Below are positions 1 through 41,984 of a stretch of DNA of 53,411 nucleotides, in pieces. The DNA is from a virus: IMG/VR virus record IMGVR_UViG_3300050821_013390, positions 1-53,411 of that record; one strand, given 5' to 3'. A program made the translations under genes and the position numbers. The notes beneath the pieces were generated by a model. That model was not told the origin of the DNA. It saw only the letters and a program-made list of their open reading frames with translations, and did not search any database. How positions within the stretch are numbered: the first letter of the stretch is position 1; each line of letters starts with the position of its first letter.

Positions 1-98
1 CTATAGCACAACACTATTCTCAAGTGACTGGAAAAGAGTTAATTAATCCAGGCAATAGCGCTATACTTGATTACCAGCCTTATCCATTTCTATTAGCT
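1..98. repeat. Terminal direct repeat, copy 1 (identical to 53314..53411); circular-assembly overlap or terminal redundancy
   Basis: Bases 1-98 (ctatagcacaacactattc...ccatttctattagct) recur exactly at the 3' end of the window. One ORF reads through the join in frame. Confidence 0.95.
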
Positions 99-716
99 CA
101 TCCCGATAGATTAATTAAGGGTGAACGCAAAGGCCTAGAGATAAAAACCGTCAACATGAACTCTAAACATCTGTGGGGCGACGGTGGTCCTAGTACCAGC
201 TCCGATATACCCATGCATTATTATTATCAAATAGCCCACTACATGCTGGTTCTGGACTATCCTGCTTGGGATGTGGCTGTCTTATTTGGCGGTAATGAGT
301 TTAGGATATATAACTTTGAACGCGATTATGAAATGGATGAGCTCATTTTTAATAAAGCAAAGCATTTTTGGGAAGAGCATGTTCTTAAGAAGATTCCGCC
401 TGACCGTAACTTTGTGCATCCTCGTTTTAAAGAATGCATTAAACGTCAATATGATAAGGTGCAAGATGAGGTTGTAGAGCTGCCTGATGACTGCATTCAG
501 ATTAGTGAAGTAATCCATGGGGCTAAAGAGCAAATCAGAGAGTATCAAAAAATTAAAGAAGGTCTAGAGAATAAAATACTAGCTGACATGGGCAATGCCA
601 GTGTGGCTAAGTTAAGCAATGGTAACTACTTCGTTAGAAAACAGGTTACCACTAAAGAATATACTGTAAAAGCCAAAGAGTACGTACAGTTAAGTTTTAA
701 AGTGAGTAAGGAATGA
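1..716 (+). CDS. YqaJ/lambda-Exo-type recombination exonuclease, C-terminal part (gene starts at 53133 and crosses the circular junction)
   Basis: In frame with 53133..53411 through the 98-nt overlap. The joined product is about 298 aa. It has GLGGSDIGAI near the N-terminus and HPDRL...GLEIKT (PD-(D/E)xK-like) motifs typical of YqaJ-family exonucleases. Confidence 0.85.
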   Translation, partial: IAQHYSQVTGKELINPGNSAILDYQPYPFLLAHPDRLIKGERKGLEIKTVNMNSKHLWGDGGPSTSSDIPMHYYYQIAHYMLVLDYPAWDVAVLFGGNEFRIYNFERDYEMDELIFNKAKHFWEEHVLKKIPPDRNFVHPRFKECIKRQYDKVQDEVVELPDDCIQISEVIHGAKEQIREYQKIKEGLENKILADMGNASVAKLSNGNYFVRKQVTTKEYTVKAKEYVQLSFKVSKE

Positions 717-1042
717 AGATAGATATTTTACAAATCATGCAAGAGCTTGGCCTTACGCAAAAACAATTAGCCAAGCTTATGGGTGTTCATCCTCGCAGCG
801 TTGGTAGATGGATGAAGGAACCTGAAACCATTCCCGGACCGCCTAGGCATACTCTAATTGCATGGCAAAAATTACATAGAATTGGAATGGCTTGGGGGCC
901 TCACATGATTGACATTATGACGGATGACCAAAAGGTTCGGGTTAGGGAGGTAGTTACACACCATATAGATTTAAAAAGAACAGAGGCTGAGATTAAAACC
1001 TTAGAAGAAAAACTTAAGCAATTAAAAGTAGAGCAAGCATGA
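713..1042 (+). CDS. HTH DNA-binding protein (XRE-like)
   Basis: LGLTQKQLAKLMGVHPRSVGRWM helix-turn-helix. ATGA start/stop overlap with the exonuclease gene. Confidence 0.7.
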   Translation: MKIDILQIMQELGLTQKQLAKLMGVHPRSVGRWMKEPETIPGPPRHTLIAWQKLHRIGMAWGPHMIDIMTDDQKVRVREVVTHHIDLKRTEAEIKTLEEKLKQLKVEQA

Positions 1043-1224
1043 CAAAAATTACAACAATAGTATTTATATTCGTGTGCTGTCTGGGAGGGTCTTTTGTGGT
1101 TAGCAAGGTAATGGATATGTTAGTGGAAGAAAAAATTATAGACCAATTAGATGTTATTGTTATGCGCTTATGCTTATCGTTTTTTGTGCTTGGGGCCTCA
1201 ATTATGGCTTGGTTTTTAAAATAG
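1039..1224 (+). CDS. Small membrane protein (two hydrophobic segments)
   Basis: ATGA overlap with the upstream gene. TTIVFIFVCCLGGSFVV and LCLSFFVLGASIMAWFL segments. Confidence 0.55.
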   Translation: MTKITTIVFIFVCCLGGSFVVSKVMDMLVEEKIIDQLDVIVMRLCLSFFVLGASIMAWFLK

Positions 1225-1237
1225 TAAAGGAACAAAC

Positions 1238-1459
1238 ATGTCAGACATTAATATAACACCACCGGAAAGAAGGGATATACAAGAGGTTCTTGAAATGCCT
1301 CATCAAAGACAACAAAGAATACGGGGAAATTTGCTCATAGGAAGGCAAGCGGCTCGCCCATTAATAGCGCAATTTCAAGTTGTTACTAACCAGCAAATAC
1401 AAGCAAGAATGACATTAGAGGAGAATAGACGGCAGATTGATAATAGATTGGTAATATAA
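1238..1459 (+). CDS. Hypothetical protein
   Basis: SD-like AAAGGAAC upstream. Lies in a same-strand operon. Confidence 0.55.
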   Translation: MSDINITPPERRDIQEVLEMPHQRQQRIRGNLLIGRQAARPLIAQFQVVTNQQIQARMTLEENRRQIDNRLVI

Positions 1460-1472
1460 ATTAGGAGTAAAG

Positions 1473-2285
1473 ATGAGTAGTATACAGATTTTAGATTTTT
1501 CGAGCTTCGAGCATGCCCAGCGCTCAGCCAACCTAATAGCTAATTCAAGCTTTTGTCCAGGAAGCTTTAAAGGGAGGCCTATAGATGTATTGCTGGCTGT
1601 GGCGCATGGGGGGGAGCTTGGTATACAGCCCCTACAAGCATTACAGAACATTGCGGTTATTAATGGCAAGCCCGCTGTCTGGGGTGACCTAATGAAGGCA
1701 TTATGTGAGAGGGCTGTAGAATGCATGGATATAATAGAAACTTTTGACGAAGATATATGGGTTGCGGTGTGCATTGTTAAGCGAAAGGATAAGGCAGATG
1801 TTGTTGCTAAATTCAGCAAGGAAGATGCACAGAAGGCAAACCTATGGGGTAAACAAGGACCATGGACCACCTATCCTAAGCGTATGCTACAGATGCGTGC
1901 TCGCGGGTTTGCCTTAAGAGATGCTTTCCCTCATTTATTAAAAGGCTTAATATCAGCTGAAGAGGCTCAAGATAGCCCCGCTATTGTGCGCAAGCCTATT
2001 AATGATGGTAATATAATAGAACATACTGTGAATGAGGTCGTTCCTATAACGGTGGAGACCCTGGAAAAATTGGCACATTTGATTACTTTCGCGAGCGATC
2101 CATTTGCAACAGAGGAAGCAATCTTACGCAAAGCTCGGGTAAAAACATTAGCTCAGCTTACAGAAGAAGCAGCACAAGGGTGGGTTAATATGATGGAAGC
2201 AAAGATGCAAGAGCGGGAGAAGGAGCCCAAGGAAGCGCCTATAATTGGGGCTATTGAAACCAATGAACAGATAGGGGGTGAATAA
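1473..2285 (+). CDS. Single-strand annealing protein, Bet(Red-beta)/RecT superfamily
   Basis: GKQGPWTTYPKRMLQMRARGFALRDAFP resembles, as I recall it, the conserved core of Bet/RecT-type annealases. It is partnered with a YqaJ exonuclease in the same operon. AGGAG SD. Confidence 0.75.
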   Translation: MSSIQILDFSSFEHAQRSANLIANSSFCPGSFKGRPIDVLLAVAHGGELGIQPLQALQNIAVINGKPAVWGDLMKALCERAVECMDIIETFDEDIWVAVCIVKRKDKADVVAKFSKEDAQKANLWGKQGPWTTYPKRMLQMRARGFALRDAFPHLLKGLISAEEAQDSPAIVRKPINDGNIIEHTVNEVVPITVETLEKLAHLITFASDPFATEEAILRKARVKTLAQLTEEAAQGWVNMMEAKMQEREKEPKEAPIIGAIETNEQIGGE

Positions 2286-2677
2286 TGAGTATTACTAGTT
2301 TTTTAAAGAGTTTGTTTAATAAGCCAGTAGTAGAGCAAGATGCTTTTATAAATATTGACAGATACACAGAGAGCGCTCTTAGGCTAGCTTTAGAGGCTAA
2401 AATTTGGCAAAAAGAACAGCAAGTTAAGAAGGACTTTCCTATTACTCGCATACCTTGTCAAAAAAGGATCCATATAGAAGGAGGGTATGAGGGAATGGTT
2501 AAGGACATACTTGCGCAAGCTGCTCGCCCTCTTCGTGTGAAAAAAATATTAAAACTAATGGGGCCAAAATATAAAAGCAAAAAACAATCGGTATCGGCAT
2601 GCCTATATAGATGTACAAGGGCAAATAAAACTTTCTTTAGAGATGGTCCTTGTTTTGGCCTTCTGGAATGGGAGTAA
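2285..2677 (+). CDS. Hypothetical protein
   Basis: TAATG overlap with the annealase gene. Basic C-terminal half. Confidence 0.55.
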   Translation: MSITSFLKSLFNKPVVEQDAFINIDRYTESALRLALEAKIWQKEQQVKKDFPITRIPCQKRIHIEGGYEGMVKDILAQAARPLRVKKILKLMGPKYKSKKQSVSACLYRCTRANKTFFRDGPCFGLLEWE

Positions 2678-2679
2678 AA

Positions 2680-2823
2680 ATGAAAAATATACTAGTAATC
2701 CTAGCGATTATGTCGCTTAATGGTTGCATTATGAAGGCTAATGAGATAGATATAGACCCGGAATTTGAGCTTATGAAGTCCATGGTTCTAGATAAAGGGA
2801 ATGGGAATAGGAGACTTTTATAA
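2680..2823 (+). CDS. Mini-lipoprotein candidate (47 aa)
   Basis: Not in the ORF track. MKNILVILAIMSLNG|C is a signal peptide with a lipobox-like LNGC. GGGAG SD 6 nt upstream. Confidence 0.5.
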   Translation: MKNILVILAIMSLNGCIMKANEIDIDPEFELMKSMVLDKGNGNRRLL

Positions 2824-2846
2824 ATATAAATTTTGCTTTCTTTTCT

Positions 2847-4055
2847 TTGTTTGGAATAGCTTTTTCTTCAGGCTCCGTGTTTATTTTTTTAGCAAGCAGC
2901 TTACCGTTATTAATCTATTCTGAGCATGGTTCTGCTAAGCAAATCAGCATTCTAGCGTTAATAACAATTCCCTATTCTTTAAAAATATTATGGGCGCCGT
3001 ATTTCGATCATAATGTGGCCCCAGTTCTATATAGATGCTTTGGTCATCGTAAGGCGTGGGCGTTATTTTTACTTGCTGTTTTATTTATCATGATGGGGTT
3101 TATGCCCTATACATCGCCACACAAGGATTATCTATTAACCTGCTTATTAGCAACTCTCATATGCATGGGGATGGCTATGATAGATACTATATCAGCAGCT
3201 TACCGTGCGGGGAACTTCACCAAGGAACGTTTGCCGATGGCTATGGCTTTTACTAACATGGGATTTTATACGGGTTTATTATTAGCAGGCGCTGGGTCTT
3301 TATATTGTTCTGCTCATAACTTCTCCTGGCAACGAATTAATCTACTAATGCTATATTTATTAATACCTAGCTTTATAGGTTGGTTATGCTTGGGTGATAC
3401 TACCCAAAACGCTATCTCTAATCACCCAGATAAACAGCCCCTACGAGATTTTGTTAAAACTTTACAACATGCATTAAAGGATTTAAACCAGAGCCACTCA
3501 TTGAAGTGGCTTGCATTATTTATATTGTTTTATAAAATTAGTGATTCTGTTACCCAATACTGGGGTCCAGTAATGTTTATGGATTTAGGATTTAGCAAAT
3601 CTGAATTAGCCTTTACCGTAAGAACTGTGGGTACTGTAGCCATGCTGGTGGCGAGTGCTATTGCCGGCAAATGGCTTACTAAAACAGGAATTATGCGAGG
3701 CATGATTGGGTGTGGTATTTTACAGTTAGCTGCTCCCTTGGTGTTGTTGTATTTCGCAACAAGCAGCCAAAACAAAGTTATCTTTACTATTACGGTAGTT
3801 ATTCAAGCTATTGTATGTGGAATGGCTCATACGGCACTAATGACTTTTTTAGCCAGTTTATGTAAAGGTCAATATATAATCACTAAAATTGCTGTAGTAT
3901 GCTCATTTGCATCATTTATGCGCACATTATTGGCTTATGGGAGTGGCTATTTTAAGGGCTATACCAATATCAGTTGGCCCCTTTTCTTTATTATCGTGGC
4001 AGTTTCAAGCATACCCTTTCTGTATGCAGCACGAAAACTAAAATCCTGTAGTTAA
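2847..4055 (+). CDS. ampG: AmpG-family MFS permease (muropeptide transporter-like)
   Basis: Multi-pass membrane protein. PYSLKILWAPYFD...FGHRKAW and IDTISAAYRAGNFTKERLP match the AmpG signatures (FKFLWSPLMD...FGRRRGW, DIVFDAW..D.L..EERG). The only in-frame start is TTG at 2847; the frame is open from 2811. Confidence 0.75.
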   Translation: MFGIAFSSGSVFIFLASSLPLLIYSEHGSAKQISILALITIPYSLKILWAPYFDHNVAPVLYRCFGHRKAWALFLLAVLFIMMGFMPYTSPHKDYLLTCLLATLICMGMAMIDTISAAYRAGNFTKERLPMAMAFTNMGFYTGLLLAGAGSLYCSAHNFSWQRINLLMLYLLIPSFIGWLCLGDTTQNAISNHPDKQPLRDFVKTLQHALKDLNQSHSLKWLALFILFYKISDSVTQYWGPVMFMDLGFSKSELAFTVRTVGTVAMLVASAIAGKWLTKTGIMRGMIGCGILQLAAPLVLLYFATSSQNKVIFTITVVIQAIVCGMAHTALMTFLASLCKGQYIITKIAVVCSFASFMRTLLAYGSGYFKGYTNISWPLFFIIVAVSSIPFLYAARKLKSCS

Positions 4056-4333
4056 GTTACATTCAAGATAATGTTAAGCTGCCTCTTGAATTCTTGCGTT
4101 AGAGCTTTCTCTAGCATTTCATCAGCCACCTCTATTCTCCTCTCTAACGCGGCTGTATACCTACTGCTATCCCCCAGGTCCTCCTCATATGCATCTGACA
4201 ATGCCTGGCATTTTTTCTCTAAATCTTTAATCTGTTTTTGTTCATAGGTCCTGCGTACAGCCAACGCTTTATCAGCCTCAGATGTCTTATTATAGGGAGG
4301 TTGAAGTAATATGTCCTTGAAAATATGGTGCAT
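4052..4333 (-). CDS. Hypothetical coiled-coil protein
   Basis: Last ORF of the leftward late block. Its stop shares a TTAA with the ampG-like stop (convergent, no spacer). Confidence 0.5.
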   Translation of the reverse strand: MHHIFKDILLQPPYNKTSEADKALAVRRTYEQKQIKDLEKKCQALSDAYEEDLGDSSRYTAALERRIEVADEMLEKALTQEFKRQLNIILNVT

Positions 4334-4404
4334 TTGCCGTTCCGTGAGCTTTTGGTCCTATATTTTCGCGCGATATACAACGGACGTCAATATTAAGAGT
4401 CACC

Positions 4405-4773
4405 CTAATTTGGTAGTCCTAACATGGATTTCCTAACTGCCCTTTCTTCTACATGTCTTTCGTGAGGAACCATAATGGTTATGGTATGCGAAAACAATAT
4501 AGCCGGTTGGGCTATTGGTATTTCTGTGTAATCCTCAATACATGCTTGGGTTACCTCTAAAATTCCCAGCGTTGTTGGAGAGGGTGGCCGAGACGCTCTG
4601 CGCGCCCGCGACTCTGTAATAAAATTAGTTAGCTTCTCCCTAATAGACTTTGTGCGAAATAATACATCACATATACAGAAGGGGGCCGCTATTACCAATA
4701 CTGCCATAATTAACCACCAGGTTATCCATTGTGGACCGTTTAATAGGGTAGATACATAATTAAAGATAAACAT
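4405..4773 (-). CDS. Membrane-anchored hypothetical protein
   Basis: N-terminal TM segment WITWWLIMAVLVIAAPFCICDVLF. Confidence 0.55.
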   Translation of the reverse strand: MFIFNYVSTLLNGPQWITWWLIMAVLVIAAPFCICDVLFRTKSIREKLTNFITESRARRASRPPSPTTLGILEVTQACIEDYTEIPIAQPAILFSHTITIMVPHERHVEERAVRKSMLGLPN

Positions 4774-4930
4774 TGGGGAGCCTCTTGTTTATGCAATCGA
4801 CATATTCCAAACCTATTGTCGATATTTTACTTATATTTGAACATTTCTTTTTCTTAGATGCTAGGGCTATTATATAGTCCCTCCATCTATTACTAGCATT
4901 TGAGGGGTGTGCACTGTTTGCGTTCTTCAT
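4760..4930 (-). CDS. Small hypothetical protein (56 aa)
   Basis: Not in the ORF track. ATG at 4928-4930. Fills the gap between the VRR-NUC gene and the next gene and overlaps the next start. Confidence 0.3.
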   Translation of the reverse strand: MKNANSAHPSNASNRWRDYIIALASKKKKCSNISKISTIGLEYVDCINKRLPNVYL

Positions 4931-4945
4931 GTCTAAGCTTACAAA

Positions 4946-5320
4946 TCAGCTAGATAAACCACAATGCTCAAGAAAAACTTGTTGCGCCTCATTCCAGCTA
5001 TAAACGATTTCAACTCGATAGTTTTGTTGTCGTAGGGCGTCCTGAATGTCCTTTTGAATAGGACTAGATTTTCTGCCTTTTACCTTAAACTCAAGCCTTA
5101 AGCCGTGATGTTTACCATCTTTAGAAGCAATGTCAATACTTACATCAGGCACTCCCGCCGTTACCCCCGCAAGCTTCATGTTATGAGCCTCAAAGATATT
5201 ACGGGAGCCTCCGTTAGGTATAGCGTAAACTACTTTCCTTAGCTCAGGATGGGCATAGCTTAACCATCTAAAGAAAAACGCCTGTTCTTTTTCTTCTGTT
5301 TTATTATATTTTCTGGGCAT
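4946..5320 (-). CDS. VRR-NUC domain nuclease
   Basis: GVPDVSI...GLRLEFKVKG...Q is a PD-ExK core. The size and the N-terminal FFRWL pattern are typical of VRR-NUC. Confidence 0.75.
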   Translation of the reverse strand: MPRKYNKTEEKEQAFFFRWLSYAHPELRKVVYAIPNGGSRNIFEAHNMKLAGVTAGVPDVSIDIASKDGKHHGLRLEFKVKGRKSSPIQKDIQDALRQQNYRVEIVYSWNEAQQVFLEHCGLSS

Positions 5321-5322
5321 TT

Positions 5323-6480
5323 TTAACTTATAGTAACGCTTATATCAGCAACGTCTGTAGGCGCATTTGTGTTAGTGGTGAAAGCATAAACCGTAACACT
5401 AGTTGTTAATGTTGCTGCATAGCTAGTAACAATAGATGCGCCATTACCAGCTGTAGCTATCACAACATAATTAGTATTAGCCAATGGCGTTGTATAAGTA
5501 ATTACCCATTGACCCGTAGCAATGTGATTTACAGTTGCTACATTAAACTGTGAATTAATGGTGCAAAGCTGAGGTATAGCTCCTGTTACTCCATTAAACC
5601 GTACATTCGCTATTCCCGAACCAGTTAAAGACCAAACACCAGGAGCAGTACGTACCGGTATCCCCGTTCCTGCTCCAAAGCTAATTAATGCAAGCAAGTC
5701 GCTTCCGAATGCAAAATGAAAAATGCCATTGCCAGTTATAGGGTTGGTTGTGCTGCTTGTTATTACCAAATTAGCTGCATTGGTACCATTGGGAACATCA
5801 GCGCCAATAGAATCAACGTATTGATTTGGCGTTATGCCAATCTGGATGTTAGCGGAACTGGTAGTAACTGTAATAGGAGTGGCACCTGTTATCGACTTTA
5901 ATGCCCACGTATCAACCCCTGTTCTATCAGCGAATCCAGTTGCCCCTCCAAATTGAGTTAATGCCAATAAATCATGTGCTAAACCAACATTAATAGTCCC
6001 TGTAGTTGTTATAGGAAGCCCTGGAGTTCCCGTAATTACAACATTATTATTTAGAGAATCAGCGTTTATGGAGGTAACCGCGGCAGAGCCAGCAGGACGA
6101 ACAACGCGCCAGCTGCCATTTACCGTTGTATTGTCAGTTAAAATAAATTCCCAAAACTCGCCTGGCGCAATAGTGGCTAATGTGGTGCCTCCATTGTTTG
6201 CTACGATATAAGCATTAGTGCCCGGATTATTAAAAGTTACTTTCTCTCCAGTGCTTGCTTCTTGCGCGTTCGGCATCATAACTGTATTGCTGCCCGCATC
6301 TGTCGCGGTTATATCTATCCACCCTGCAACTATATAGGGGGTATCTATAAATTGGGTAGACCAGTATAAAACAAGAGGATTATTAACAGGTACGGTAGTA
6401 TTATTTAGCGTATAAGCCGCATAAGAGGTATAAGAGGTTTGCGTTACCCCGCTACCAATAATATTAATATATGACATCAC
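5323..6480 (-). CDS. Tail fibre / receptor-binding protein 2
   Basis: Thr/Gly/Asn/Val-rich beta-type composition. Internal duplicated module (LLALTQFGGATGFADRTGVDTWAL / LLALISFGAGTGIPVRTAPGVWSL). Lies at the end of the virion block. Confidence 0.6.
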   Translation of the reverse strand: MMSYINIIGSGVTQTSYTSYAAYTLNNTTVPVNNPLVLYWSTQFIDTPYIVAGWIDITATDAGSNTVMMPNAQEASTGEKVTFNNPGTNAYIVANNGGTTLATIAPGEFWEFILTDNTTVNGSWRVVRPAGSAAVTSINADSLNNNVVITGTPGLPITTTGTINVGLAHDLLALTQFGGATGFADRTGVDTWALKSITGATPITVTTSSANIQIGITPNQYVDSIGADVPNGTNAANLVITSSTTNPITGNGIFHFAFGSDLLALISFGAGTGIPVRTAPGVWSLTGSGIANVRFNGVTGAIPQLCTINSQFNVATVNHIATGQWVITYTTPLANTNYVVIATAGNGASIVTSYAATLTTSVTVYAFTTNTNAPTDVADISVTIS

Positions 6481-18176: not shown

Positions 18177-21100
18177 CTACCAAGTAAACCATTGAGTGCC
18201 ATTGCTATAAACCCTAACAATTCCATAAGCCCCTAAAGCCGCTGTAGCTGCACCATCAATATTGCCACCTCCTGTTACGTTAACAGTGCTTCCGCCAACC
18301 CCGCTTTCATCTTTTATTATGTAGGTTTGACCTGAGTTTCCAGCTGCTGCGGTAGGTAAATGTATAGTCAAGGTACTGGCGGTACATGCAATGATGTAAT
18401 CAGTAACAAGAGCACTATAAGTTACAGCAGTTGCGGTACGCTCAACCAATATACCGCCTGTAAAATAAACTTGCGTTCCAGTGGCTCCCAATACTACGGA
18501 ATTAGCAACACTGGCCGTCGCGCCAGCTCCTATAGCTGTAGAATTGGTTTGAGTTGCGTGAGTGTTGAATCCTATGCATGTAGAAGTGCTTCCGCTAGCG
18601 CCAGCAGAAGCGCCCACTGCGGTAGCAGCGAGAGCGGTTGCCGAGCTATTACCTATAGCAATTGTATTGGTTTGGCTGGCCGTAGCAGCCGGCCCTATAG
18701 CTACACCCTGGGTGCCTGATGCGTTAGCGCCTTGACCTACTGCAAGTGCTGATGCCCCTGCTGTACTATTGGAACCAATAGCAGTGCAATTACCGCCGGT
18801 AGCAGATGCCGTATTACCTATAGCAATAGATTCATTTGATGTTGCAGTATTACCATTTCCAATATTAATAGCATACGTAGAGGTGCCGCTTGCAGTAGTG
18901 GAGAGGGTGAAATTTCCGTTTGTGGCATTTACGGTAAGCAGAAGACCGCTATCCTTAATCAATGTACCAGTAGTATTATTATAAGTAGCAATATCGCCCG
19001 CTATTGAGGTGCCAGGACCGGTTACATTCCCAGAGCCTGCGCTTAGAGCTACCCATGCGCCATTTTGACGAAACTGAAATGAAGTGGTGCCAGTATCGTA
19101 AATAACCATTCCATTTACCGGCGATGTTACTGAAGCAGTTGTAGTGCGAGGAACTAAAATACCAGTAGTAGTAGCAGTTACATCTAATACCGCAGCCGGG
19201 GTAGAGGTGCCTATACCAACGCTCACAGCATCAGCGCCAGTACCCCCTAAGATTAAAGTATTTGCAACAGTTGCACTTGCGCTTTCTCCCAATGCTGTTG
19301 CATTAGTTGCGCTTGCATGTGCGTTATATCCTAATGCCGTACTAAAATCCCCTGATGCGAAGGAGCTAGGTCCTATTGCTACAGCGTTTTGATGGGTTGC
19401 GTTAGTCGAGGTGCCAATAGCTAAACCACTAGTAATATTTGCATTAGTATTAAAGCCTATTGCTATAGCGTTGGGGCCTGTAGCGCTGGTTGAATTACCT
19501 ATATTTATGTTATTAGTAGAGGAACCACTAGCGGGAGCGGAGAGACTTAAATTTCCAGCCACGCTATTTACAGCAAGTAATGCGCCGCTATCTTTAATTA
19601 ATGTCCCGGTTGTATTATTGTAAGTAGCTATGTCACCCACAACCGATGTTCCAGGACCTGTTACATTGCCTCCCCCTACTGCAACCCATGCAGTATTTTG
19701 ATAAACCATTATTGCAGTAGTTCCTGTATCATAAATAATCATACCGTTAGCGGGAGTCACTATAGAGGCGGTTGTGGTGCGAGGAACTAAAAGAGCCTTT
19801 GTAGTGCTAGTTAAATCTAAAAGAGCTGATGCAGCGGGAGTGGATGTACCTACACCGATACTTACAGCATTTGCTCCTGTTCCACCCAGTATCATAGTGC
19901 TTGCAACAGTTGCGCTTGCATTAATACCTATAGCAACGGCATTAGCGGCAGTAGCACCGGCAGTATCACCTATAGCAATAGAGCCACCAAAAGATGCGGT
20001 AGAATTGTATCCCATAGCAATAGCTTGACTGCCAGCTGCGGCAGCGGTATCACCTATAGCGATTCCCTTACCTCCAGATGTAGTGGCGCTATTACCTATA
20101 GCAATGCCAGTTCCGGCTGATGCAGCAGCTAAATGACCTATGGAAATATCATAGGTACTAGAACCGCTTGCGGTAGCAGATAAACTAAAATCTCCAGTCA
20201 CACTATTTACGGTAGCTAAAAGACCGCTGTCCTTAATTAATGTGCCGGTGGTGTTGTTATACGTTGCTATATCGCCAACTACTGATGTGCCAGGGCCAAC
20301 CACATTTCCAGAACCTGAGCCTAATGCTACCCAAGCTCCAGCTTGACGAAATTTAAATGCTGTAGCGCTATTATCATAAACAATCATGCCGTTAACAGGA
20401 GATGTTACCGCTCCTGTATTGGCGACGCGAGGAACTAATAATCCGCTGTTTGCACTGGTTACATCCAAAACCGCGGCAGGCGTGGACGTGCCTATACCAA
20501 TGCTTAATGCATCAGAAGTGCCCGATACCCCCCCTAATATCATAGTATTTGCAACAGTTGCAGCTGCGCTACCGCCAATTGCAACAGCCTTATCAGCAGT
20601 TACATTTGCAAAATTACCCATAGCTATTGAACCATCTCCAGCAACAGTGGCGTTATTTCCTATGGCTATACTTACACCAAAAACAGACACTCCTGCTGTC
20701 GTTGTTGCCTCATTTCCTATAGCAATACAGCTGGCATCAGCAGCACTAGCTCCTGGTCCAATTGCTATCGCGCCAGTACTGGAATTGGTGTTAGCTTGAG
20801 ATAGCTGACCAATAGCGATACCACTACCACCAGCTGCAAAAGCTGTATCACCAATGGCCACAGAATGGCTGCCTGTGGAGCTCGCATCGGTTCCAATTAT
20901 GACAGGATTAGTAAGGCCATCATCAACAACGGATGCAGAGCCTATGCAGGTAATACCAGAGCCCGTAATATTAGAGGTGCCAGCTGCATGCCCTATAAAT
21001 ATATTTTCATTTCCATCGGTTGTGCCAGCTCCGGCATTAACACCAATTCCTATATTAAAAGTACCAGTATCTATGGCCTCTAATGCGCCATAACCTAGGG

Positions 21101-21623
21101 CGATGTTATTAGGTTCAGCGCCAGTTGAAGCGCTTGGGACAATTAAGAAATTACTTGTAACTGGATCTATAGTTAAGTGAAGGCCAGAATCACTTGGATT
21201 GCCGCTGCCATTAAATACCATGAAATCCCCAGGGGTTCCTGTAATAACAGGCGGAACAATGCCGCCATCCTGGATGCCAGTGCCAAGAGCATTATTAAAT
21301 ACAGCTAAATGCCCCACTGTTGTTGGACCAGTACCAACTACATTGCCTCCCGCGCCGCCTGTACTTATGGATGCCCAAGCACCATTGGTATAAACCTGCA
21401 TTGTATTGGTAGTACTATTATAAATCTGCGAACCATTTACTACATTTAATAAATCTCTTTGGGCTGTAGTCATCCTAGGAAACAAAACCATTCCAGTAGT
21501 TGTTTGCACTTCAAGTGCAGCATCAACGGGACTGTAATTGTTTACCGTATAGGTCGCAGGGGGTGCAGCTATAATGATGTCTGCAAAATTACTGGGGGCC
21601 GCTGGCCGCGAATTAAGTGCCAT
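18177..21623 (-). CDS. Giant tail fibre/spike with YadA-head-like repeats in about 213-aa super-repeats
   Basis: 1148 aa. Many (S/A)IAIGxxAxA units (Hep_Hag/YadA-head-like). Three modules follow the scheme LVPRxxT...NGM(I/V)(I/V)YD...GAWVA...GPGTS(V/I)xGDIATYNNTTGTLIKDSG. Confidence 0.75.
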   Translation of the reverse strand: MALNSRPAAPSNFADIIIAAPPATYTVNNYSPVDAALEVQTTTGMVLFPRMTTAQRDLLNVVNGSQIYNSTTNTMQVYTNGAWASISTGGAGGNVVGTGPTTVGHLAVFNNALGTGIQDGGIVPPVITGTPGDFMVFNGSGNPSDSGLHLTIDPVTSNFLIVPSASTGAEPNNIALGYGALEAIDTGTFNIGIGVNAGAGTTDGNENIFIGHAAGTSNITGSGITCIGSASVVDDGLTNPVIIGTDASSTGSHSVAIGDTAFAAGGSGIAIGQLSQANTNSSTGAIAIGPGASAADASCIAIGNEATTTAGVSVFGVSIAIGNNATVAGDGSIAMGNFANVTADKAVAIGGSAAATVANTMILGGVSGTSDALSIGIGTSTPAAVLDVTSANSGLLVPRVANTGAVTSPVNGMIVYDNSATAFKFRQAGAWVALGSGSGNVVGPGTSVVGDIATYNNTTGTLIKDSGLLATVNSVTGDFSLSATASGSSTYDISIGHLAAASAGTGIAIGNSATTSGGKGIAIGDTAAAAGSQAIAMGYNSTASFGGSIAIGDTAGATAANAVAIGINASATVASTMILGGTGANAVSIGVGTSTPAASALLDLTSTTKALLVPRTTTASIVTPANGMIIYDTGTTAIMVYQNTAWVAVGGGNVTGPGTSVVGDIATYNNTTGTLIKDSGALLAVNSVAGNLSLSAPASGSSTNNINIGNSTSATGPNAIAIGFNTNANITSGLAIGTSTNATHQNAVAIGPSSFASGDFSTALGYNAHASATNATALGESASATVANTLILGGTGADAVSVGIGTSTPAAVLDVTATTTGILVPRTTTASVTSPVNGMVIYDTGTTSFQFRQNGAWVALSAGSGNVTGPGTSIAGDIATYNNTTGTLIKDSGLLLTVNATNGNFTLSTTASGTSTYAINIGNGNTATSNESIAIGNTASATGGNCTAIGSNSTAGASALAVGQGANASGTQGVAIGPAATASQTNTIAIGNSSATALAATAVGASAGASGSTSTCIGFNTHATQTNSTAIGAGATASVANSVVLGATGTQVYFTGGILVERTATAVTYSALVTDYIIACTASTLTIHLPTAAAGNSGQTYIIKDESGVGGSTVNVTGGGNIDGAATAALGAYGIVRVYSNGTQWFTW
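18510..20435 (-). repeat. Three tandem, diverged copies of about 0.64 kb inside the fibre gene
   Basis: The anchor string taat(t/c)aatgt recurs at 18956, 19595 and 20234, exactly 639 bp apart. VPR codons gcgaggaac occur at 19146, 19779 and 20427. Confidence 0.85.
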
Positions 21624-28769: not shown

Positions 28770-29372
28770 TTATCCGCGAGTTACGTAAGATGGGTCATCT
28801 ACGGTCCCTAAACATCTATCATCCGGCAAATATTGCATCGGAAGACCCCTATACATAACCTGCGTCCCTTCATTACGTGGGAATACTATAAAATCACCCA
28901 CCTTACACCAAGGACCTGATAGTCTGAACCTTGCGCCTTTGTAACAATCAAAGCCTTGCGCTACGACCAATCCTGTGCAATTACGATATTTGTCTTCGCT
29001 CCTCGTCGTTTCTGCCGCTATAAGGCATTTCTGCTTACCTGTTAACGGGTCCATAATAGGACTACCGTCATCATTAAATAACTTCACTAAATCTTCATCG
29101 CGTGTATAAACTTTAACAATCATATGAAAACCGCTTACACGTGGCGGCTCAAATCCTAACGTAGCTCTAACTACAGCCTTAGCCCGAGCTTCTTCTTCCG
29201 TCTCAATCAAACTGCATTGATTGTCTTTACGATTACTAATGGTAGCCTCAATATCTTCTAACCGTTTACGTAATTCATCATTCTCAGTCTTAATGGCATT
29301 AAAATAATGTTTCAACGTTTCAAAATACTGTTGCTCCTCTTGTCTTACTGCGTTAACCAAGTTCTCCATCAT
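28770..29372 (-). CDS. Protein with C-terminal GroES/Cpn10-like fold candidate
   Basis: HMIVKV...TGLVVAQG...CKVGDFIVFPRNEGTQVMYRG...YLPDDRCLGTVDD follows the GroES pattern (VIVKR...GEVLAVG...VKVGDIVIF...SESDILAIV). Confidence 0.4.
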   Translation of the reverse strand: MMENLVNAVRQEEQQYFETLKHYFNAIKTENDELRKRLEDIEATISNRKDNQCSLIETEEEARAKAVVRATLGFEPPRVSGFHMIVKVYTRDEDLVKLFNDDGSPIMDPLTGKQKCLIAAETTRSEDKYRNCTGLVVAQGFDCYKGARFRLSGPWCKVGDFIVFPRNEGTQVMYRGLPMQYLPDDRCLGTVDDPSYVTRG

Positions 29373-33209: not shown

Positions 33210-34820
33210 ATGAATAACAACTTAAACGCGTATTTACTAGAATTCTTAGGCAAATATCCTGAGATAGTTAAAGAACAAAGGCAAGAAAAGGCTTATGAGA
33301 CCTCGTTTTATGAGTTCGCAAAAGCTGCATGGCCTAATATTGATTCCAGTACCTTCCAGGATGCTTGGCATGCTCGCGCCATATGCGAGCATTTAGAGGC
33401 TGTAGTTAGGGGTCTAATACCAAAGTTAATCATTAATGTACCTCCTCGTACTGGCAAGTCCGCCCTTATATCAATCATGTTCCCAGCCTGGGTATGGATT
33501 ACTCAGCCTAAAATGAAGTTCCTGTACGGCTCTCACGCTTATAGCCTCGCTCTAGACCATTCACGGCGTTGCCGCCTACTAATAGAGAGTGACTGGTATC
33601 AAAAACGCTGGGGAAGCATATTTAAGCTTTCAGCTGACCAGTCCACCAAACACTTCTTCACCAATGACAAGCATGGGCACAGACTGGCTACGAGCGTTGG
33701 GGGAGGGGTTACTGGCTTTGGAGCTAACATATTAATAGGCGACGATTTAAATGACCTAAGCGATGGGTATTCTTCCACGGCTCGTGACCGAGCTAATGAC
33801 TGGGTAAGTCGCGTATGGTCTTCCCGTACCAATCCTGGTCAATTCAGTGCCCATATAATAGTGCAGCAAAGGGTAGCGTGTTCTGATGTAACGGGTTACC
33901 TATTAGATAAAGACGAGAAAAAAGAATGGGTGAAGCTAATCTTGCCCATGGAATTTGAAACAGCTAGACGCGCTAAAACCATTATCCTACCCTCTACCTA
34001 TCCCAATACATGGGAAGACCCTAGAAAGAGAGAGGCAGAGCTCCTGTGGCCCGCAGGAATAGATAGATTAAAAGTCCAAACATTTAAAGGGGACTTAGGA
34101 GATTATAACTACGCAGGACAACATCAACAAAGACCCAGTCCTGAAGCTGGAGGTATTATTCAAAAGAGTTGGTACCAATGGTGGAAGCAACCAGCACCCC
34201 CCAAGTTATTGCAAACTGTTCAAAGCTGGGATACAGCCTTAGAGGCTAAAGATGAGAATTGTTATTCAGCTTGCACAACATGGGGGTTATTCGAGGACGA
34301 TAAGAAGGCAACTAATATAATCTTGTTAAATATGTGGCGAGGTAAGGTTGAGTTCCCAGTGCTAAGAAAAATGGCTAAGCGTCTATATGAGGACTATAGA
34401 GACGACGGTAGCATTGCAATAAAGCCCGATAATAAGCATGTTCCCACCTTTGTGCTGGTAGAAGCCAAGGCATCAGGTAGCTCCTTAATACATGAGCTCC
34501 AAAGCGCGGGCATTCCGGCCTATGGGTTTGACCCAGGAAGGTTTGGCGAGAAGATTCAAAGGGTAAGGCTAGTTACTCACATGATTGAAGGGGGAAGGGT
34601 CTGGGTGCCAGCTTATCCCCCTGAATATGTGAGACTCCGGAACTTTGCCGATATCTTTGTTAATGAGACCTCCCTATTCCCCAAGAGTGATAGCCGGGAC
34701 TTAGTTGACACGATGACCCAAGTTTTATTAAGATTGAATACTTCGGGGCTTATAAAACACCCTGATGCAAAGGACATGGAAGATACAGGAACCGTATTGA
34801 GTGATGCTCTGTACTGGTAA
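33210..34820 (+). CDS. terL: Terminase large subunit
   Basis: Walker [17 protein letters not shown] Walker B-like motif, and a C-terminal nuclease-type region (VLVEAKASG...DSRDLVDT). Confidence 0.9.
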
Positions 34821-36807: not shown

Positions 36808-37527
36808 CTATAACGATATATTATAAATTATCCCCAACCCACAGGTTAGGCTGTTCTTTGCTTGGATATGTCGATGGGGGTTGGTTTTAGAATATGCCCG
36901 TAAACGATGGGGTCGCCAATAATTATTAAAGACCTCTCTTACCGTAGCCTCCACGCTAAAATCTTTAACATTGTATCCCATTCCAATTTTTATTACCGGT
37001 AATATCTTGGTATTCTGGAAAATAGAACTAATATCAACCATTGTTGTATTATATTGATAAATAAAGGCGTGTGCTTTTACTCGAGAAATACTAAGACCCA
37101 ATCCCCCTAGAGCATAGCAATTACCAAAATTATTAATCTTTATCAATACCATTAATGGTATATGTGACTGTCGCATCTTAGTGCGCATCCTAACAACATG
37201 TCCGGCTGGTATAGGATTGCTTCCGGCTACCATTTCTTCAGACCCAATAGATGCATTATATTTTTGACAGAAATAATTCTCGTATCCTGCTTCAATCCCA
37301 AAATGACGCGAAAACATAAATCCCGCGCTAACACCTACGCCTTTTGTATTCTTATGGAATAAGTTTTTTCCGTAATTGTTTTCCCATTGCGTATGATTAG
37401 ATAAGGCTGATACCCCCAGTCTAATGGTCTTAGGATGGGCATATACTATCTTAAATGAACCATGTTTTTCGGCATAGGAAATGCTGGCAAATATTAATAA
37501 TATGCTACTTAAGATTAATACTTTCAT
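36808..37527 (-). CDS. Outer-membrane beta-barrel protein (OmpA-N/Ail-Lom-like moron)
   Basis: Signal peptide MKVLILSSILLIFASISYA|E (start 37525-37527). Alternating amphipathic strands GVSAGFMFSRHFGIEAGYENY, YALGGLGLSISRV, VIKIGMGYNV, LTCGLGIIYNI. Confidence 0.65.
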   Translation of the reverse strand: MKVLILSSILLIFASISYAEKHGSFKIVYAHPKTIRLGVSALSNHTQWENNYGKNLFHKNTKGVGVSAGFMFSRHFGIEAGYENYFCQKYNASIGSEEMVAGSNPIPAGHVVRMRTKMRQSHIPLMVLIKINNFGNCYALGGLGLSISRVKAHAFIYQYNTTMVDISSIFQNTKILPVIKIGMGYNVKDFSVEATVREVFNNYWRPHRLRAYSKTNPHRHIQAKNSLTCGLGIIYNISL

Positions 37528-37550
37528 TATTTTATTTGCCCTTCTGTCAT

Positions 37551-37712
37551 TTATGGAGCCCATTTATAGGGTTCACCCATGCCGGGGCCCATCGAGAACG
37601 GTCTCCATACGCCACCCTTATACACGCAAATCGCCACCGTCCCATCAGCAGGGATCCAAAGCTTTTCCTGTTGTTCAACAGTCATGTGGGGGATATTTAT
37701 TTTTTCAGTCAT
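37551..37712 (-). CDS. Small early protein (53 aa), possible 4th member of the Y-x-x-G-x-W family
   Basis: Not in the ORF track. ATG at 37710-37712, 3 nt upstream of the preceding gene's stop codon (8-nt overlap). MTEK... N-terminus like its neighbours. AICVYKGGVWRPF motif. Confidence 0.45.
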   Translation of the reverse strand: MTEKINIPHMTVEQQEKLWIPADGTVAICVYKGGVWRPFSMGPGMGEPYKWAP

Positions 37713-41332: not shown

Positions 41333-41569
41333 TTACCCCTTCTTGTCCAACTCATTCGCTAACACTTTAACCCTACCCACAATTTCCTTAGAACTTTCCT
41401 CAAGCTCCTTAAGTTTTCCCTTATTATAGAGCCAGGGATTATCCTTAACGCTATAGAACACTGGCTTACGCGCACCACCATGCAAGTCATCCGCTAACCA
41501 TCTAATCATCTTGATAGCCTCAGACTGCTCTATCTTTTCTTTTAAGTCAGAGAATGCCTTATATGTCAT
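41333..41569 (-). CDS. Early hypothetical protein
   Basis: Packed operon. Confidence 0.55.
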   Translation of the reverse strand: MTYKAFSDLKEKIEQSEAIKMIRWLADDLHGGARKPVFYSVKDNPWLYNKGKLKELEESSKEIVGRVKVLANELDKKG

Positions 41570-41984
41570 GCTCTTTCTCTAGCCATTCCGGCAACTTATT
41601 TAAACGAAAGATAATCATATCTAATTCATCCCGCATCCTGCCAATCTGGCCCTCAAGCTTCTCCGCTCTATCCTGCATTCTCATTATTTCAACTATAGCT
41701 CTACTTAGGCATATATCCTTAATTTCTTGCGGAATCGCAGCGTTTTTCTTGACTTTCTTCTTAAACAAGCTTCCGGTCATTCCTAAACTTACTTTATGAT
41801 TAGCTAAAGTTTTCTTAATATCGCTCACTTGCTTCTTACCCATATTAACCATCTTCAACAAATCCTTCTCGGTTTTTTGCACCAAATCTCCAATAACATT
41901 AATCCCATCATGCTTTAAGGCATTGGTAGCCCGCGTGGAAAGTTTTAAATCCTCTACTGGTAAATCTAAAAGCCCTTTATACAT
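41559..41984 (-). CDS. RNA polymerase alpha-subunit C-terminal-domain (alpha-CTD) homologue fused to a coiled coil
   Basis: LPVEDLKLSTRATNALKHDGINVIGDLVQKTEKDLLKMVNMGKKQVSDIKKTLANHKVSLGM aligns without gaps to E. coli RpoA 255-316. Strong AAGGAG SD. Confidence 0.8.
   Translation of the reverse strand: MYKGLLDLPVEDLKLSTRATNALKHDGINVIGDLVQKTEKDLLKMVNMGKKQVSDIKKTLANHKVSLGMTGSLFKKKVKKNAAIPQEIKDICLSRAIVEIMRMQDRAEKLEGQIGRMRDELDMIIFRLNKLPEWLEKEHDI

What the first reader, a model, noticed from the sequence alone, without database searches (positions are those of the whole stretch)
2680..4055. AmpG-like muropeptide permease plus a mini-lipoprotein at the end of the recombination operon
A 402-aa MFS protein carries the AmpG signatures: LKILWAPYFD...FGHRKAW, and D-x3-AAYR...ERLP in loop 2-3. 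It follows a 47-aa lipobox-bearing peptide.

AmpG imports anhydromuropeptides for peptidoglycan recycling and for AmpR/beta-lactamase signalling. It is a housekeeping inner-membrane gene and not a usual phage gene.

The phage copy lacks an ATG. It has only a TTG at 2847, and the frame opens at 2811. Compared with E. coli AmpG it begins inside TM1, so it may be N-terminally shortened or use an unusual start.

Possible roles are scavenging wall fragments released during infection, altering cell-wall stress signalling, or superinfection exclusion.
Basis: partly seen in the sequence, partly recalled or inferred. Interest (0 to 1): 0.65.

Follow-up and report, generated by a model that had tools for sequence, protein, structure and literature searches.

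The report
Phage-borne divergent AmpG-like membrane permease
An uncultured 53-kb phage carries a small lipoprotein gene and a very divergent relative of AmpG, the bacterial importer of cell-wall fragments; the gene is real, kept by selection and starts at ATA instead of ATG, but residues that AmpG needs for transport are changed, so its substrate and role are unknown.

Summary
Window 2680-2823 encodes a 47-aa signal-peptide/Cys protein. The next ORF is a 12-helix MFS protein whose best match by profile, by solved-structure sequence and by fold is AmpG.

The start puzzle is resolved. In the one close relative (78% identity, a syntenic phage contig) the gene starts at ATG. The window has ATA at that position (2820-2822), 6 nt after an AGGAG and overlapping the lipoprotein stop (ATAA). 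An independent JGI contig also has ATA. The TTG at 2847 aligns with an ordinary Leu codon and has no ribosome-binding site.

The gene is under purifying selection (dN/dS 0.11). Its G+C (38%) is slightly below the genome's 41%, and it has phage genes on both sides in a circular genome.

It is not a typical AmpG. It scores 221 bits against a 350-bit curated cut-off. No protein in 1.84 billion representatives exceeds about 32% identity. It keeps the GlcNAc-site and motif A residues but has replaced Arg153, Glu326, Asp129 and Asp134 (E. coli numbering). R153A and E326A abolish E. coli AmpG function.

Most likely it is a working AmpG-derived permease with altered coupling or substrate. The host and the role are unresolved.

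The parts
24..716 (+). 3' part of a YqaJ-like exonuclease gene. The full 298-aa gene runs across the window's circular junction.
   Evidence: Pfam YqaJ, E=7e-10. The full gene is seen on ENA contig L002. The window has a 98-bp terminal repeat.
713..1042 (+). 109-aa HTH (Xre-type) protein within the operon
   Evidence: ORF list. Precomputed Pfam hit HTH_3 on L002.
1473..2285 (+). RecT-family single-strand annealing protein
   Evidence: Pfam RecT, E=2e-7.
2285..2677 (+). 130-aa ORF of unknown function, immediately upstream of the cassette. It is not shared with the related phage.
   Evidence: No Pfam, NCBIfam, PHROG or PADLOC hit. L001 has a different gene at this position.
2680..2823 (+). 47-aa putative lipoprotein: signal peptide, then L-N-G-C, then the conserved mature N-terminus CIMKANEIDIDPEF
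   Evidence: ORF. The homologue in L001 at 151-345 is 64 aa. The 14 conserved codons differ only at synonymous sites. A GGGAG lies 5 nt before the ATG.
2809..2813 (+). Shine-Dalgarno AGGAG, 6 nt upstream of the ATA
   Evidence: Sequence. The motif and spacing match those before the RecT gene and other genes of this genome.
2820..2822 (+). ATA at the position of the orthologous ATG start. It overlaps the lipoprotein stop TAA (2821-2823), giving ATAA.
   Evidence: Alignment with L001. The same ATA is present in independent JGI contig L006.
2820..4055 (+). AmpG-family (PAT-type) MFS permease, 411 codons from ATA. Gene callers give 402 aa from TTG at 2847.
   Evidence: Family and structure matches. 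dN/dS of 0.11 against L001.
2847..2849 (+). TTG used as the start by ORF and gene callers. It aligns with a Leu (TTA) codon in the relative and has no SD upstream.
2982..3008 (+). Codons K55 to D63 (E. coli K62, W65, P67, D70): the GlcNAc-contacting Lys and the motif A Asp, all conserved
   Evidence: Residue roles from PMC11568325 and PMC12214514.
3183..3212 (+). TM4 segment D122-T-I-S-A126-A-Y-R129-A-G131. D125 is kept. D129 is Ala and D/E134 is Gly.
   Evidence: The single SNP against L006 is synonymous, at 3212.
3264..3269 (+). F149-Y150, in place of E. coli Y152-R153. The substrate-binding Arg is lost.
   Evidence: R153A abolishes function (PMC12214514).
3804..3806 (+). Q329, in place of E. 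coli Glu326, the proposed final proton acceptor
   Evidence: E326A loses function and E326D retains it (PMC12214514).
4052..4333 (-). Convergent 93-aa ORF whose stop overlaps the MFS stop. It is the first gene of the minus-strand block and is syntenic in L001.

Best explanation
A two-gene cassette, a small envelope lipoprotein plus an AmpG-derived 12-helix inner-membrane permease, is a stable and selected part of this phage lineage. It is transcribed as the tail of the early recombination operon.

The permease is translated from ATA at 2820. Initiation would use the well-placed AGGAG and/or ribosomes terminating at the overlapping lipoprotein stop (ATAA). This should give a full TM1 and probably a low protein level.

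The protein keeps the AmpG sugar site (Tyr59, Lys62, Asp125, Arg365), motif A and the TM7 Lys/Asp pair. It has neutral residues at Glu326, Asp129 and Asp/Glu134, and Tyr at Arg153. I therefore infer that it still binds and moves an amino-sugar-type, cell-wall-related solute during infection. I also infer that its energetics (facilitator or exchanger, not H+ symporter) and/or its specificity differ from AmpG.

Shown: the gene structure, family, fold, selection, residue pattern and the ATA. Inferred: use of the ATA, the low expression level, the kind of substrate, the loss of coupling, and any partnership with the lipoprotein.
For: Family and fold:
- TIGR00901 AmpG family, E=1.7e-65, aligned over profile positions 9-411 of 417.
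- PDB AmpG sequences at E about 1e-20.
- AlphaFold model with pLDDT 85 and pTM 0.84, all-helical. The top five Foldseek PDB hits are AmpG, at E from 2e-15 to 5e-10; other MFS proteins come at about 1e-8.

A selected phage gene:
- The 78%-identical orthologue sits in a syntenic phage contig.
- dN/dS is 0.11 with dS 1.24. This is comparable with the neighbouring VRR-NUC gene (0.07) and the 759-aa gene (0.07).
- The two copies depart from the family consensus equally often: 5 against 6, 3 against 1 and 1 against 0 sites at three thresholds.
- G+C is 38% against 41% for the genome.

Start codon:
- ATG in L001 aligns with ATA in the window.
- L006 is 1015/1016 identical and also has ATA.
- The AGGAG with a 6-nt spacer matches the ribosome-binding sites of other genes. 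Nothing comparable precedes the TTG.
- In E. coli, AUA initiates at roughly 1-2% of AUG (bioRxiv 10.1101/063800).

Residues:
- Kept: Y59, K62, W65, P67, D70, R80, W83, D125, R132, K235, D238, R365.
- Changed in both phage copies: D129A, D/E134G, R153Y, E326Q.
- Among 178 homologues, D/E occupies position 129 in 165 and position 134 in 165. R occupies 153 in 161. E/D occupies 326 in 159.
- E326A and R153A abolish function and E326D retains it. E326A still binds substrate, and the authors compare it with LacY Glu325 (PMC12214514).
Against: - There is no expression or transport data.
- ATA is a very poor start codon in E. coli, so the window copy could be nearly silent.
- At columns where at least 70% of the family agree, 38 of 89 differ in both phage copies. 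This could mean a non-transport role.
- Losing Arg153 and Glu326 could equally mean loss of transport altogether.
- The host is unknown, so the relevance of peptidoglycan recycling cannot be judged.
- No peptidoglycan hydrolase or recycling gene was recognised in the phage.
- Only two phage lineages carry the gene.
Confidence: 0.5

Rival explanations
1. It is a functional orthodox AmpG: a proton-driven importer of GlcNAc-1,6-anhydroMurNAc(-peptides). The phage would use it to boost peptidoglycan recycling or to change cell-wall signalling in the infected cell.
For: - AmpG is the best match at every level.
- The GlcNAc-contacting Lys62/Asp125/Tyr59, Arg365, motif A and Lys235/Asp238 are conserved.
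- The gene is under purifying selection.
Against: - The score is 221 bits against the 350-bit cut-off. Typical AmpGs score 440-506.
- Arg153 is Tyr and Glu326 is Gln. R153A and E326A abolish function in E. coli AmpG (PMC12214514).
- Asp129 and Asp/Glu134 are also lost, a combination seen in 0 of 178 homologues.
Confidence: 0.2
2. The MFS scaffold has been co-opted for a non-transport envelope role. With the lipoprotein it could, for example, block DNA entry by other phages (superinfection exclusion) or mask an envelope component.
For: - The lipoprotein and the polytopic membrane protein are conserved as a pair in both phages.
- The lipoprotein's mature N-terminus is 14/14 identical, with only synonymous changes.
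- The MFS has diverged heavily from the family consensus.
- Small lipoproteins and inner-membrane proteins are common exclusion factors (general knowledge).
Against: - The substrate-cavity residues Lys62, Asp125, Tyr59 and Arg365 and motif A stay conserved. A pure scaffold would not need them.
- There is no PADLOC hit.
- No integrase or lysogeny module was found, so a prophage-type protective role is less obvious.
Confidence: 0.15
3. In this particular phage the gene is silenced. The ATG-to-ATA change inactivated it recently and it is on its way to decay.
For: - There is no ATG, GTG or TTG start with a ribosome-binding site.
- AUA supports only about 0.02-3% of AUG initiation in E. coli.
- The lipoprotein gene upstream has also been remodelled by deletions relative to L001.
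Against: - The reading frame is intact over 411 codons.
- The window copy has no excess of departures from the family consensus compared with the ATG-bearing copy.
- A strong SD sits at ideal spacing, and the ATAA stop/start overlap fits coupled reinitiation.
- The same ATA allele occurs in a second metagenome.
Confidence: 0.12

Closest known systems
AmpG anhydromuropeptide permease (E. coli, Yokenella, P. aeruginosa; PAT family of MFS; NCBIfam TIGR00901; PDB 9c3f, 8zgz, 9j9z)
   Same: - MFS fold, with AmpG as the best sequence and structure match.
- AmpG-type extended motif A (W65, P67, D70, R80, W83).
- Sugar-site residues Y59, K62, D125 and R365, and the TM7 pair K235/D238.
   Different: - 21-22% identity to the AmpG structures.
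- 221 bits against the 350-bit cut-off.
- No TM13-14.
- R153 is Tyr, E326 is Gln, D129 is Ala, D134 is Gly and S123 is Met.
- Encoded by a phage, preceded by a lipoprotein gene, with an ATA start.
The 'Gln326/Phe152' AmpG-like paralogue clade of cellular bacteria (P0024-P0027, P0037, P0044 and others). It includes the 'MFS transporter' of a Rickettsia endosymbiont of Halotydeus destructor and of Candidatus Cardinium hertigii.
   Same: - These are the nearest relatives in a neighbour-joining tree, at 27-32% identity.
- They share Gln at 326 and Phe at 152.
- Several also fall below the TIGR00901 cut-off, at 242-334 bits, and NCBI names them only 'MFS transporter'.
   Different: - The cellular members keep D129, E134 and R153.
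- They have a longer N-terminus.
- Where the context was seen it is chromosomal: argS, surA, rsmA and lptD around P0025.
- Their substrates are also unknown.
Other virus-encoded MFS transporters (PHROG 2034 of unknown function; MFS proteins of giant viruses in BFVD)
   Same: MFS fold in a viral genome. There is a weak hit to phrog_2034, at 56.7 bits, and fold-level matches to giant-virus MFS proteins at E about 1e-7.
   Different: No specific relationship. The BFVD hits with E below 0.01 are all from eukaryotic viruses, and none was matched as AmpG-like. The phage protein's affinity is with bacterial AmpG.
AmpG1 of Acinetobacter baumannii, coupled to the periplasmic lytic transglycosylase Slt (PMC13507758)
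   Same: A precedent for an AmpG homologue working with a periplasmic or envelope partner protein.
   Different: That partner is an enzyme bound through a dedicated periplasmic domain. Here the neighbour is a peptide of about 31 residues once matured, with no enzyme domain, and no interaction has been tested.

Membership tests
AmpG family / PAT-type MFS (NCBIfam TIGR00901) | The best profile match is the AmpG family and not another MFS family. | tested here: met
   TIGR00901 gives E=1.7e-65 and 221 bits. The next distinct family, RhtX/FptX, gives 46.7 bits. PDB AmpG sequences score 1e-20 against 1e-5 for the acetyl-CoA transporter.
AmpG family / PAT-type MFS (NCBIfam TIGR00901) | The score reaches the curated family cut-off of 350 bits. 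| tested here: not met
   221 bits for the window copy and 220 for P0002. Typical AmpGs score 441-506, and the nearest clade 242-399.
AmpG family / PAT-type MFS (NCBIfam TIGR00901) | 12-TM MFS fold that superposes best on solved AmpG structures. | tested here: met
   Model pLDDT 85.2 and pTM 0.84. The Foldseek top five are all AmpG, with query-normalised TM-scores of 0.69-0.79.
AmpG family / PAT-type MFS (NCBIfam TIGR00901) | AmpG-type extended motif A: Trp65, Pro67, Asp70, Arg80, Trp83. | tested here: met
   All are conserved, as W58, P60, D63, R77 and W80. Arg79 is His, but that position varies in the family.
AmpG (functional anhydromuropeptide:H+ symporter) | Substrate-binding residues Lys62, Asp125, Arg153 and Arg365. 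Alanine mutants of each lose function (PMC12214514). | tested here: not met
   K62, D125 and R365 are present. Arg153 is Tyr in both phage copies, whereas 161 of 178 homologues have Arg.
AmpG (functional anhydromuropeptide:H+ symporter) | Conserved membrane-embedded acidic residues Asp125, Asp129, Asp238 and Glu326 for proton coupling, plus Asp134 of the charge relay. | tested here: not met
   D125 and D238 are present. D129 is Ala, D/E134 is Gly and E326 is Gln. This triple combination occurs in 0 of 178 homologues.
AmpG (functional anhydromuropeptide:H+ symporter) | Transports GlcNAc-1,6-anhMurNAc(-peptides) and restores AmpC induction in an ampG mutant. | not testable with these tools
   This needs complementation and uptake assays.
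Bacterial lipoprotein (Lgt/LspA substrate) | N-terminal signal peptide with a basic n-region and a hydrophobic h-region, followed by an invariant Cys. | tested here: met
   MK-NILVILAIMSL-NG-C in the window and MK-IIQIMIVMSL-CSG-C in L001. The Cys is conserved.
Bacterial lipoprotein (Lgt/LspA substrate) | Canonical lipobox [LVI][ASTVI][GAS]C. | tested here: inconclusive
   The window has L-N-G-C, with an atypical Asn at -2. L001 has C-S-G-C, with an atypical Cys at -3. Each copy misses one position (read directly). No lipoprotein predictor was available.
Phage accessory ('moron' or auxiliary) gene | A gene of cellular type embedded between phage genes in a complete phage genome. | tested here: met
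   The assembly is circular and 53.3 kb, with terminase, portal, head and tail genes. The cassette lies between the RecT operon and the VRR-NUC and structural genes, and is syntenic in L001.
Phage accessory ('moron' or auxiliary) gene | Its own promoter and terminator, giving autonomous expression. | tested here: not met
   The promoter and terminator scan of 1-5400 is no better than shuffled sequence, and there is no convincing site at the cassette borders. The start of the lipoprotein gene is 3 nt after the upstream stop.

The most novel reading that the evidence does not exclude
The phage has turned an AmpG scaffold into a proton-uncoupled facilitator or exchanger that works with a dedicated mini-lipoprotein during infection. 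It might mop up or redirect peptidoglycan fragments made by phage entry or lysis enzymes, so that envelope-damage sensing or fragment release is blunted. Alternatively it might bar superinfecting phages. Either way this would be a new class of phage envelope-manipulating device, expressed at a deliberately low level from an AUA start through stop/start coupling.
Probability: 0.15. Interest if true: 0.75.

Novelty: new variant of a known kind. Interest (0 to 1): 0.45.

Why it matters
AmpG is the gate of peptidoglycan recycling and of AmpC beta-lactamase induction. I found no description of a phage-encoded relative in the literature searched.

In the 50,697-record phage collection all four hits are under 30% identical. 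One was checked and is host flank, and the other three look like non-phage or unannotated records.

If the protein is active, phages can tamper with the traffic of cell-wall fragments, which is a new kind of auxiliary function. The natural E326Q, R153Y, D129A and D134G combination under purifying selection is also a ready-made test of the proposed AmpG proton-coupling mechanism. A conserved gene with a real ATA start behind a strong SD and an ATAA overlap is a tidy case for studying non-canonical or coupled initiation.

If the protein is inactive, this is a curiosity.

Tried and rejected
- Close relatives in IMG/VR viral contigs: none.
- Close relatives in one genome per species for 185,579 species: none with phage-specific patterns. 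With clade patterns the best genome-encoded relative is only 30% identical, and the best hits are mostly Alphaproteobacteria, mixed with several other phyla.
- DNA similarity to known phages: none.
- Host identification failed. There are no tRNAs. TerL relatives all lie on contigs of 65 kb or less, without host flanks. The phage's RNAP alpha-CTD-like protein has only two other homologues. Cultured phages with the nearest TerL (about 40% identity) infect Roseobacter, Paracoccus, Rhizobium, Aeromonas and Pelagibacter, which is too distant to use.
- Lipoprotein homologues in phage records: none.
- Defence-system models: no credible hit.
- A search of the window for a peptidoglycan hydrolase, holin or integrase by Pfam and PHROGs found none.
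- Lipoprotein-MFS fusion by frameshift was rejected. The relative has two separate genes, 15 nt apart, each with its own start.
- TTG at 2847 as the true start was rejected. It aligns with a Leu codon and has no SD.
- Sequencing error at the ATA was rejected because an independent contig has the same base.
- 'Phage AmpG' in Moraxella phage Mcat17 was rejected. The match lies outside attR, in host flank.
Full report
**1. What is in the sequence**

The + strand of window 1-4055 carries a tight run of genes:
- a YqaJ-like exonuclease (24-716, the 3' part only);
- an HTH protein (713-1042);
- two small ORFs;
- RecT (1473-2285);
- a 130-aa ORF (2285-2677);
- a 47-aa ORF (2680-2823);
- a long MFS ORF ending at 4055.

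Minus-strand genes then converge from 4052. The window is a circular assembly. Its first and last 98 bases are identical, and an ENA contig joins the window's end to its start through a 298-aa YqaJ gene.

Terminase, portal, head and tail-type proteins are present. G+C is about 41% throughout, and 38% in the MFS gene. This is therefore a complete phage genome of about 53.3 kb, and the MFS gene lies well inside it, between phage genes.

**2. Family assignment**

- Pfam sees MFS_1 and a weak N-terminal Acatn hit.
- The best NCBIfam model is TIGR00901, 'AmpG family muropeptide MFS transporter'. It gives E=1.7e-65 and covers profile positions 9-411 of 417.
- The two AmpG equivalog models follow. 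The next distinct family, RhtX/FptX, scores only 46.7 bits.
- Against all PDB sequences the only strong hits are AmpG (8zgz, 9c3f, 8zbb, 9j9z; E about 1e-20). The eukaryotic acetyl-CoA transporter follows at 1e-5.
- An AlphaFold2 model built on 18 sequences is confident (pLDDT 85, pTM 0.84) and all-helical.
- Its five best Foldseek matches in the PDB are the five AmpG entries (E 2e-15 to 5e-10, query-normalised TM-score 0.69-0.79). Other MFS transporters come about six orders of magnitude behind the top hit.

The protein is AmpG-derived.

**3. How far it is from AmpG**

- It scores 221 bits against TIGR00901, whose curated cut-off is 350. Ordinary AmpGs that I scored reach 441-506 bits.
- An exhaustive HMMER scan of 1.84 billion cluster representatives found 2,378 homologues. 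Apart from the protein itself, the top-scoring hit is 30% identical and none listed exceeds 32%.
- A scan of one genome per species for 185,579 species found nothing above 30%.
- In a neighbour-joining tree of 181 sequences the phage pair sits on a long branch inside an 11-member clade.
- The named members of that clade are 'MFS transporter' proteins of a Rickettsia endosymbiont of a mite and of Candidatus Cardinium.
- One unnamed member lies in an ordinary chromosomal neighbourhood with argS, surA, rsmA and lptD.
- Rickettsia genomes are known to hold several AmpG-type paralogues (PMC1166351). Their substrates have not, to my knowledge, been defined.

**4. Residue-level test against the solved AmpG mechanism**

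Two structural papers define the functional residues.
- PMC11568325 covers motif A (Asp70, Arg79/80, Trp65, Trp83, Asp134), the sugar site (Tyr59, Lys62, Asp125, Asp129, Tyr152) and the TM7/TM10 cluster.
- PMC12214514 reports that K62A, D125A, R153A and R365A abolish function. D238A and E326A also abolish function, whereas D238E and E326D retain it. E326A still binds substrate, which the authors compare with LacY Glu325.

I mapped these residues through the HMMER alignment to 9c3f and a 181-sequence MAFFT alignment.
- Both phage copies keep Tyr59, Lys62, Trp65, Pro67, Asp70, Arg80, Trp83, Asp125, Arg132, Lys235, Asp238 and Arg365.
- Both have Ala for Asp129, where 165 of 178 homologues have D/E.
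- Both have Gly for Asp/Glu134, where 165 of 178 have D/E.
- Both have Tyr for Arg153, where 161 of 178 have R.
- Both have Gln for Glu326, where 159 of 178 have E/D and 12 have Q.
- Both have Phe for Tyr152, which is common in the family (38 of 178).
- Gln326 and Phe152 are shared with the nearest cellular clade. Ala129, Gly134 and Tyr153 are peculiar to the phage proteins, and no other sequence combines neutral residues at 129, 134 and 326.

It lies in TM4, not in loop 2-3.

From established work on LacY, neutral replacements of Glu325 abolish H+-coupled accumulation but allow exchange. That knowledge is recalled, not tested here. It makes the Gln326 state a hint of uncoupled or exchange-type transport. 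Loss of Arg153, which contacts the anhydro-MurNAc moiety, hints at altered specificity. These are inferences.

**5. Is it a live gene?**

- The only close relative (P0002, 78% identity, 411 aa) lies on a 6.8-kb Logan contig, L001.
- L001 has the same downstream gene order: a coiled-coil ORF, a small ORF, VRR-NUC, a protein of about 390 aa and a protein of about 750 aa. It is a related phage.
- Between the two MFS genes dN/dS is 0.11 with dS 1.24. The flanking VRR-NUC and 759-aa genes give 0.07 each, at similar protein identity of 80-84%.
- The transporter has therefore been inherited and constrained like core genes of this phage lineage.
- A relative-rate check shows no extra decay in the window copy. 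Sites where only one copy still matches the family consensus number 5 against 6, 3 against 1 and 1 against 0 at three thresholds.
- At columns where at least 70% of the family agree, 38 of 89 differ in both phage copies. Most of the divergence is old and shared.

**6. The start codon**

- P0002 begins MNINANFLALFG... In the window the same frame reads I-N-I-N-F-A-F-F-S-L-F-G.
- The ATG of L001 aligns exactly with ATA at 2820-2822.
- A 1,016-bp JGI contig (L006, Ga0210385) is identical to window 2280-3295 except for one synonymous G-to-T at 3212. It also has ATA, so this is not an assembly error.
- The ATA lies 6 nt downstream of AGGAG (2809-2813). This is the same motif and spacing as before RecT and several structural genes.
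- The TTG at 2847 follows a T/C-rich stretch with no SD. It corresponds to an internal Leu codon (TTA) in L001.
- The ATA overlaps the stop of the lipoprotein ORF (ATAA), which mimics the common ATGA stop/start overlap. In L001 the two genes are 15 nt apart.
- The 3' end of the window's lipoprotein gene has been remodelled by deletions relative to L001.
- In E. coli, AUA supports about 1-2% (range 0.02-3%) of AUG initiation (bioRxiv 10.1101/063800).

My reading is that translation starts at 2820, helped by the SD and possibly by termination-reinitiation, and gives a low level of a full-length protein. Starting there gives a full-length hydrophobic TM1 (hydropathy residues 3-33; modelled helix 5-34). 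Both phage proteins have a shorter cytoplasmic N-terminus than their cellular relatives. The alternative, recent silencing, cannot be excluded.

**7. The small ORF**

- The 47-aa product has a typical n-region and h-region followed by L-N-G-C. The 64-aa homologue in L001 has C-S-G-C.
- Each copy misses the classical lipobox at one position, but the Cys and the next 13 residues (CIMKANEIDIDPEF) are identical.
- The DNA under those codons differs only at four synonymous sites.
- The rest of the peptide is not conserved: 50% identity and dN/dS 0.31 overall.
- It is thus a real, selected, probably lipid-anchored peptide whose functional part is the first dozen or so mature residues.
- It has no homologue in phage records and no family hit.
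- It is linked to the MFS gene in both phages, although the gene upstream of it differs. The two therefore form a cassette.
- Whether they interact is unknown. An AmpG homologue that docks a periplasmic partner has been described (PMC13507758), but that is only a lead.

**8. Phage context and host**

- I found no integrase, no recognisable lysis genes and no peptidoglycan hydrolase by Pfam or PHROGs.
- The many TerL relatives (50-58% identity) all sit on contigs of 65 kb or less. The family therefore looks virulent or episomal, not integrated, and a lysogenic-conversion role is not favoured.
- The promoter and terminator scan around the cassette is at chance level. The cassette is probably expressed with the early recombination genes.
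- The host could not be identified. The lipoprotein, an OMP-like gene and the AmpG-type permease point to a diderm host.

**9. Precedent**

- In 50,697 phage records only four match the protein, all under 30% identity.
- I inspected the Mcat17 match. It lies beyond attR, in host DNA.
- The others are an unannotated 3.7-kb record and two 254-kb 'phage' records with an annotated ampG. I take these to be bacterial sequence, but I did not check them.
- PHROG 2034, an MFS family of unknown function, matches only weakly.
- BFVD fold matches are to giant-virus, herpesvirus and baculovirus MFS proteins.
- Full-text searches found no paper on a phage-encoded AmpG.

**10. Verdict**

- The family call 'AmpG-like' is right.
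- The functional call 'muropeptide permease' is not established and is weakened by the residue test.
- The gene is best filed as a new, phage-borne variant of the AmpG/PAT family with a natural non-AUG start and a linked mini-lipoprotein.
- Interest is moderate. It is unusual and experimentally tractable, but its role is unknown and it is so far confined to two phage lineages.

Noticed in passing
window 41559-41984 (-): A 141-aa phage protein made of an RNA polymerase alpha-subunit C-terminal domain (Pfam PF03118, E=5e-20) plus a coiled-coil tail. Only two other homologues were found by word search. It could be a decoy or adaptor for host transcription factors or UP elements.
   Followed up: partly
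window 36808-37563 (-): A 251-aa protein with an N-terminal signal sequence and a weak outer-membrane beta-barrel match (PF13505, E=7e-5, below the cut-off). It is a second possible envelope accessory gene in this phage.
   Followed up: no
window 18177-21623 (-): A 1148-aa protein with YadA head-domain repeats (PF05658, E=4e-29), probably a tail fibre built from adhesin-type repeats.
   Followed up: no
window 1-98 and 53314-53411: An exact 98-bp direct terminal repeat, so the window is a circularly closed assembly with a true length of 53,313 bp. The YqaJ gene is split by the window ends.
   Followed up: yes
window 28770-29372 (-): A 200-aa protein whose C-terminal part matches a GroES co-chaperonin PHROG (phrog_3188, E=9e-7), located among the head genes.
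   Followed up: no
whole window: No integrase, endolysin or holin was recognisable by Pfam or PHROGs among the ORFs scanned. Most structural proteins have no family hit at all.
   Followed up: partly
TerL relatives P0182, P0183, P0235: Some large-terminase relatives of this phage family carry Hint/intein domains (PF07591, PF14890, PF14528) and are 675-894 aa long. The window's own TerL (33210-34820) has no intein.
   Followed up: no
L008 (Moraxella phage Mcat17, KR093641.1, record 52685-54076): The deposited 'complete phage genome' includes an unannotated ampG-like ORF outside attR. This is flanking Moraxella chromosome and could be misread as a phage-encoded AmpG.
   Followed up: yes
window 3212 vs L006 column 933: The only difference between the window and the JGI contig over 1,016 bp is a synonymous GGG-to-GGT change in the Gly131 codon. 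Nearly identical phage genomes therefore occur in at least two metagenome projects.
   Followed up: yes
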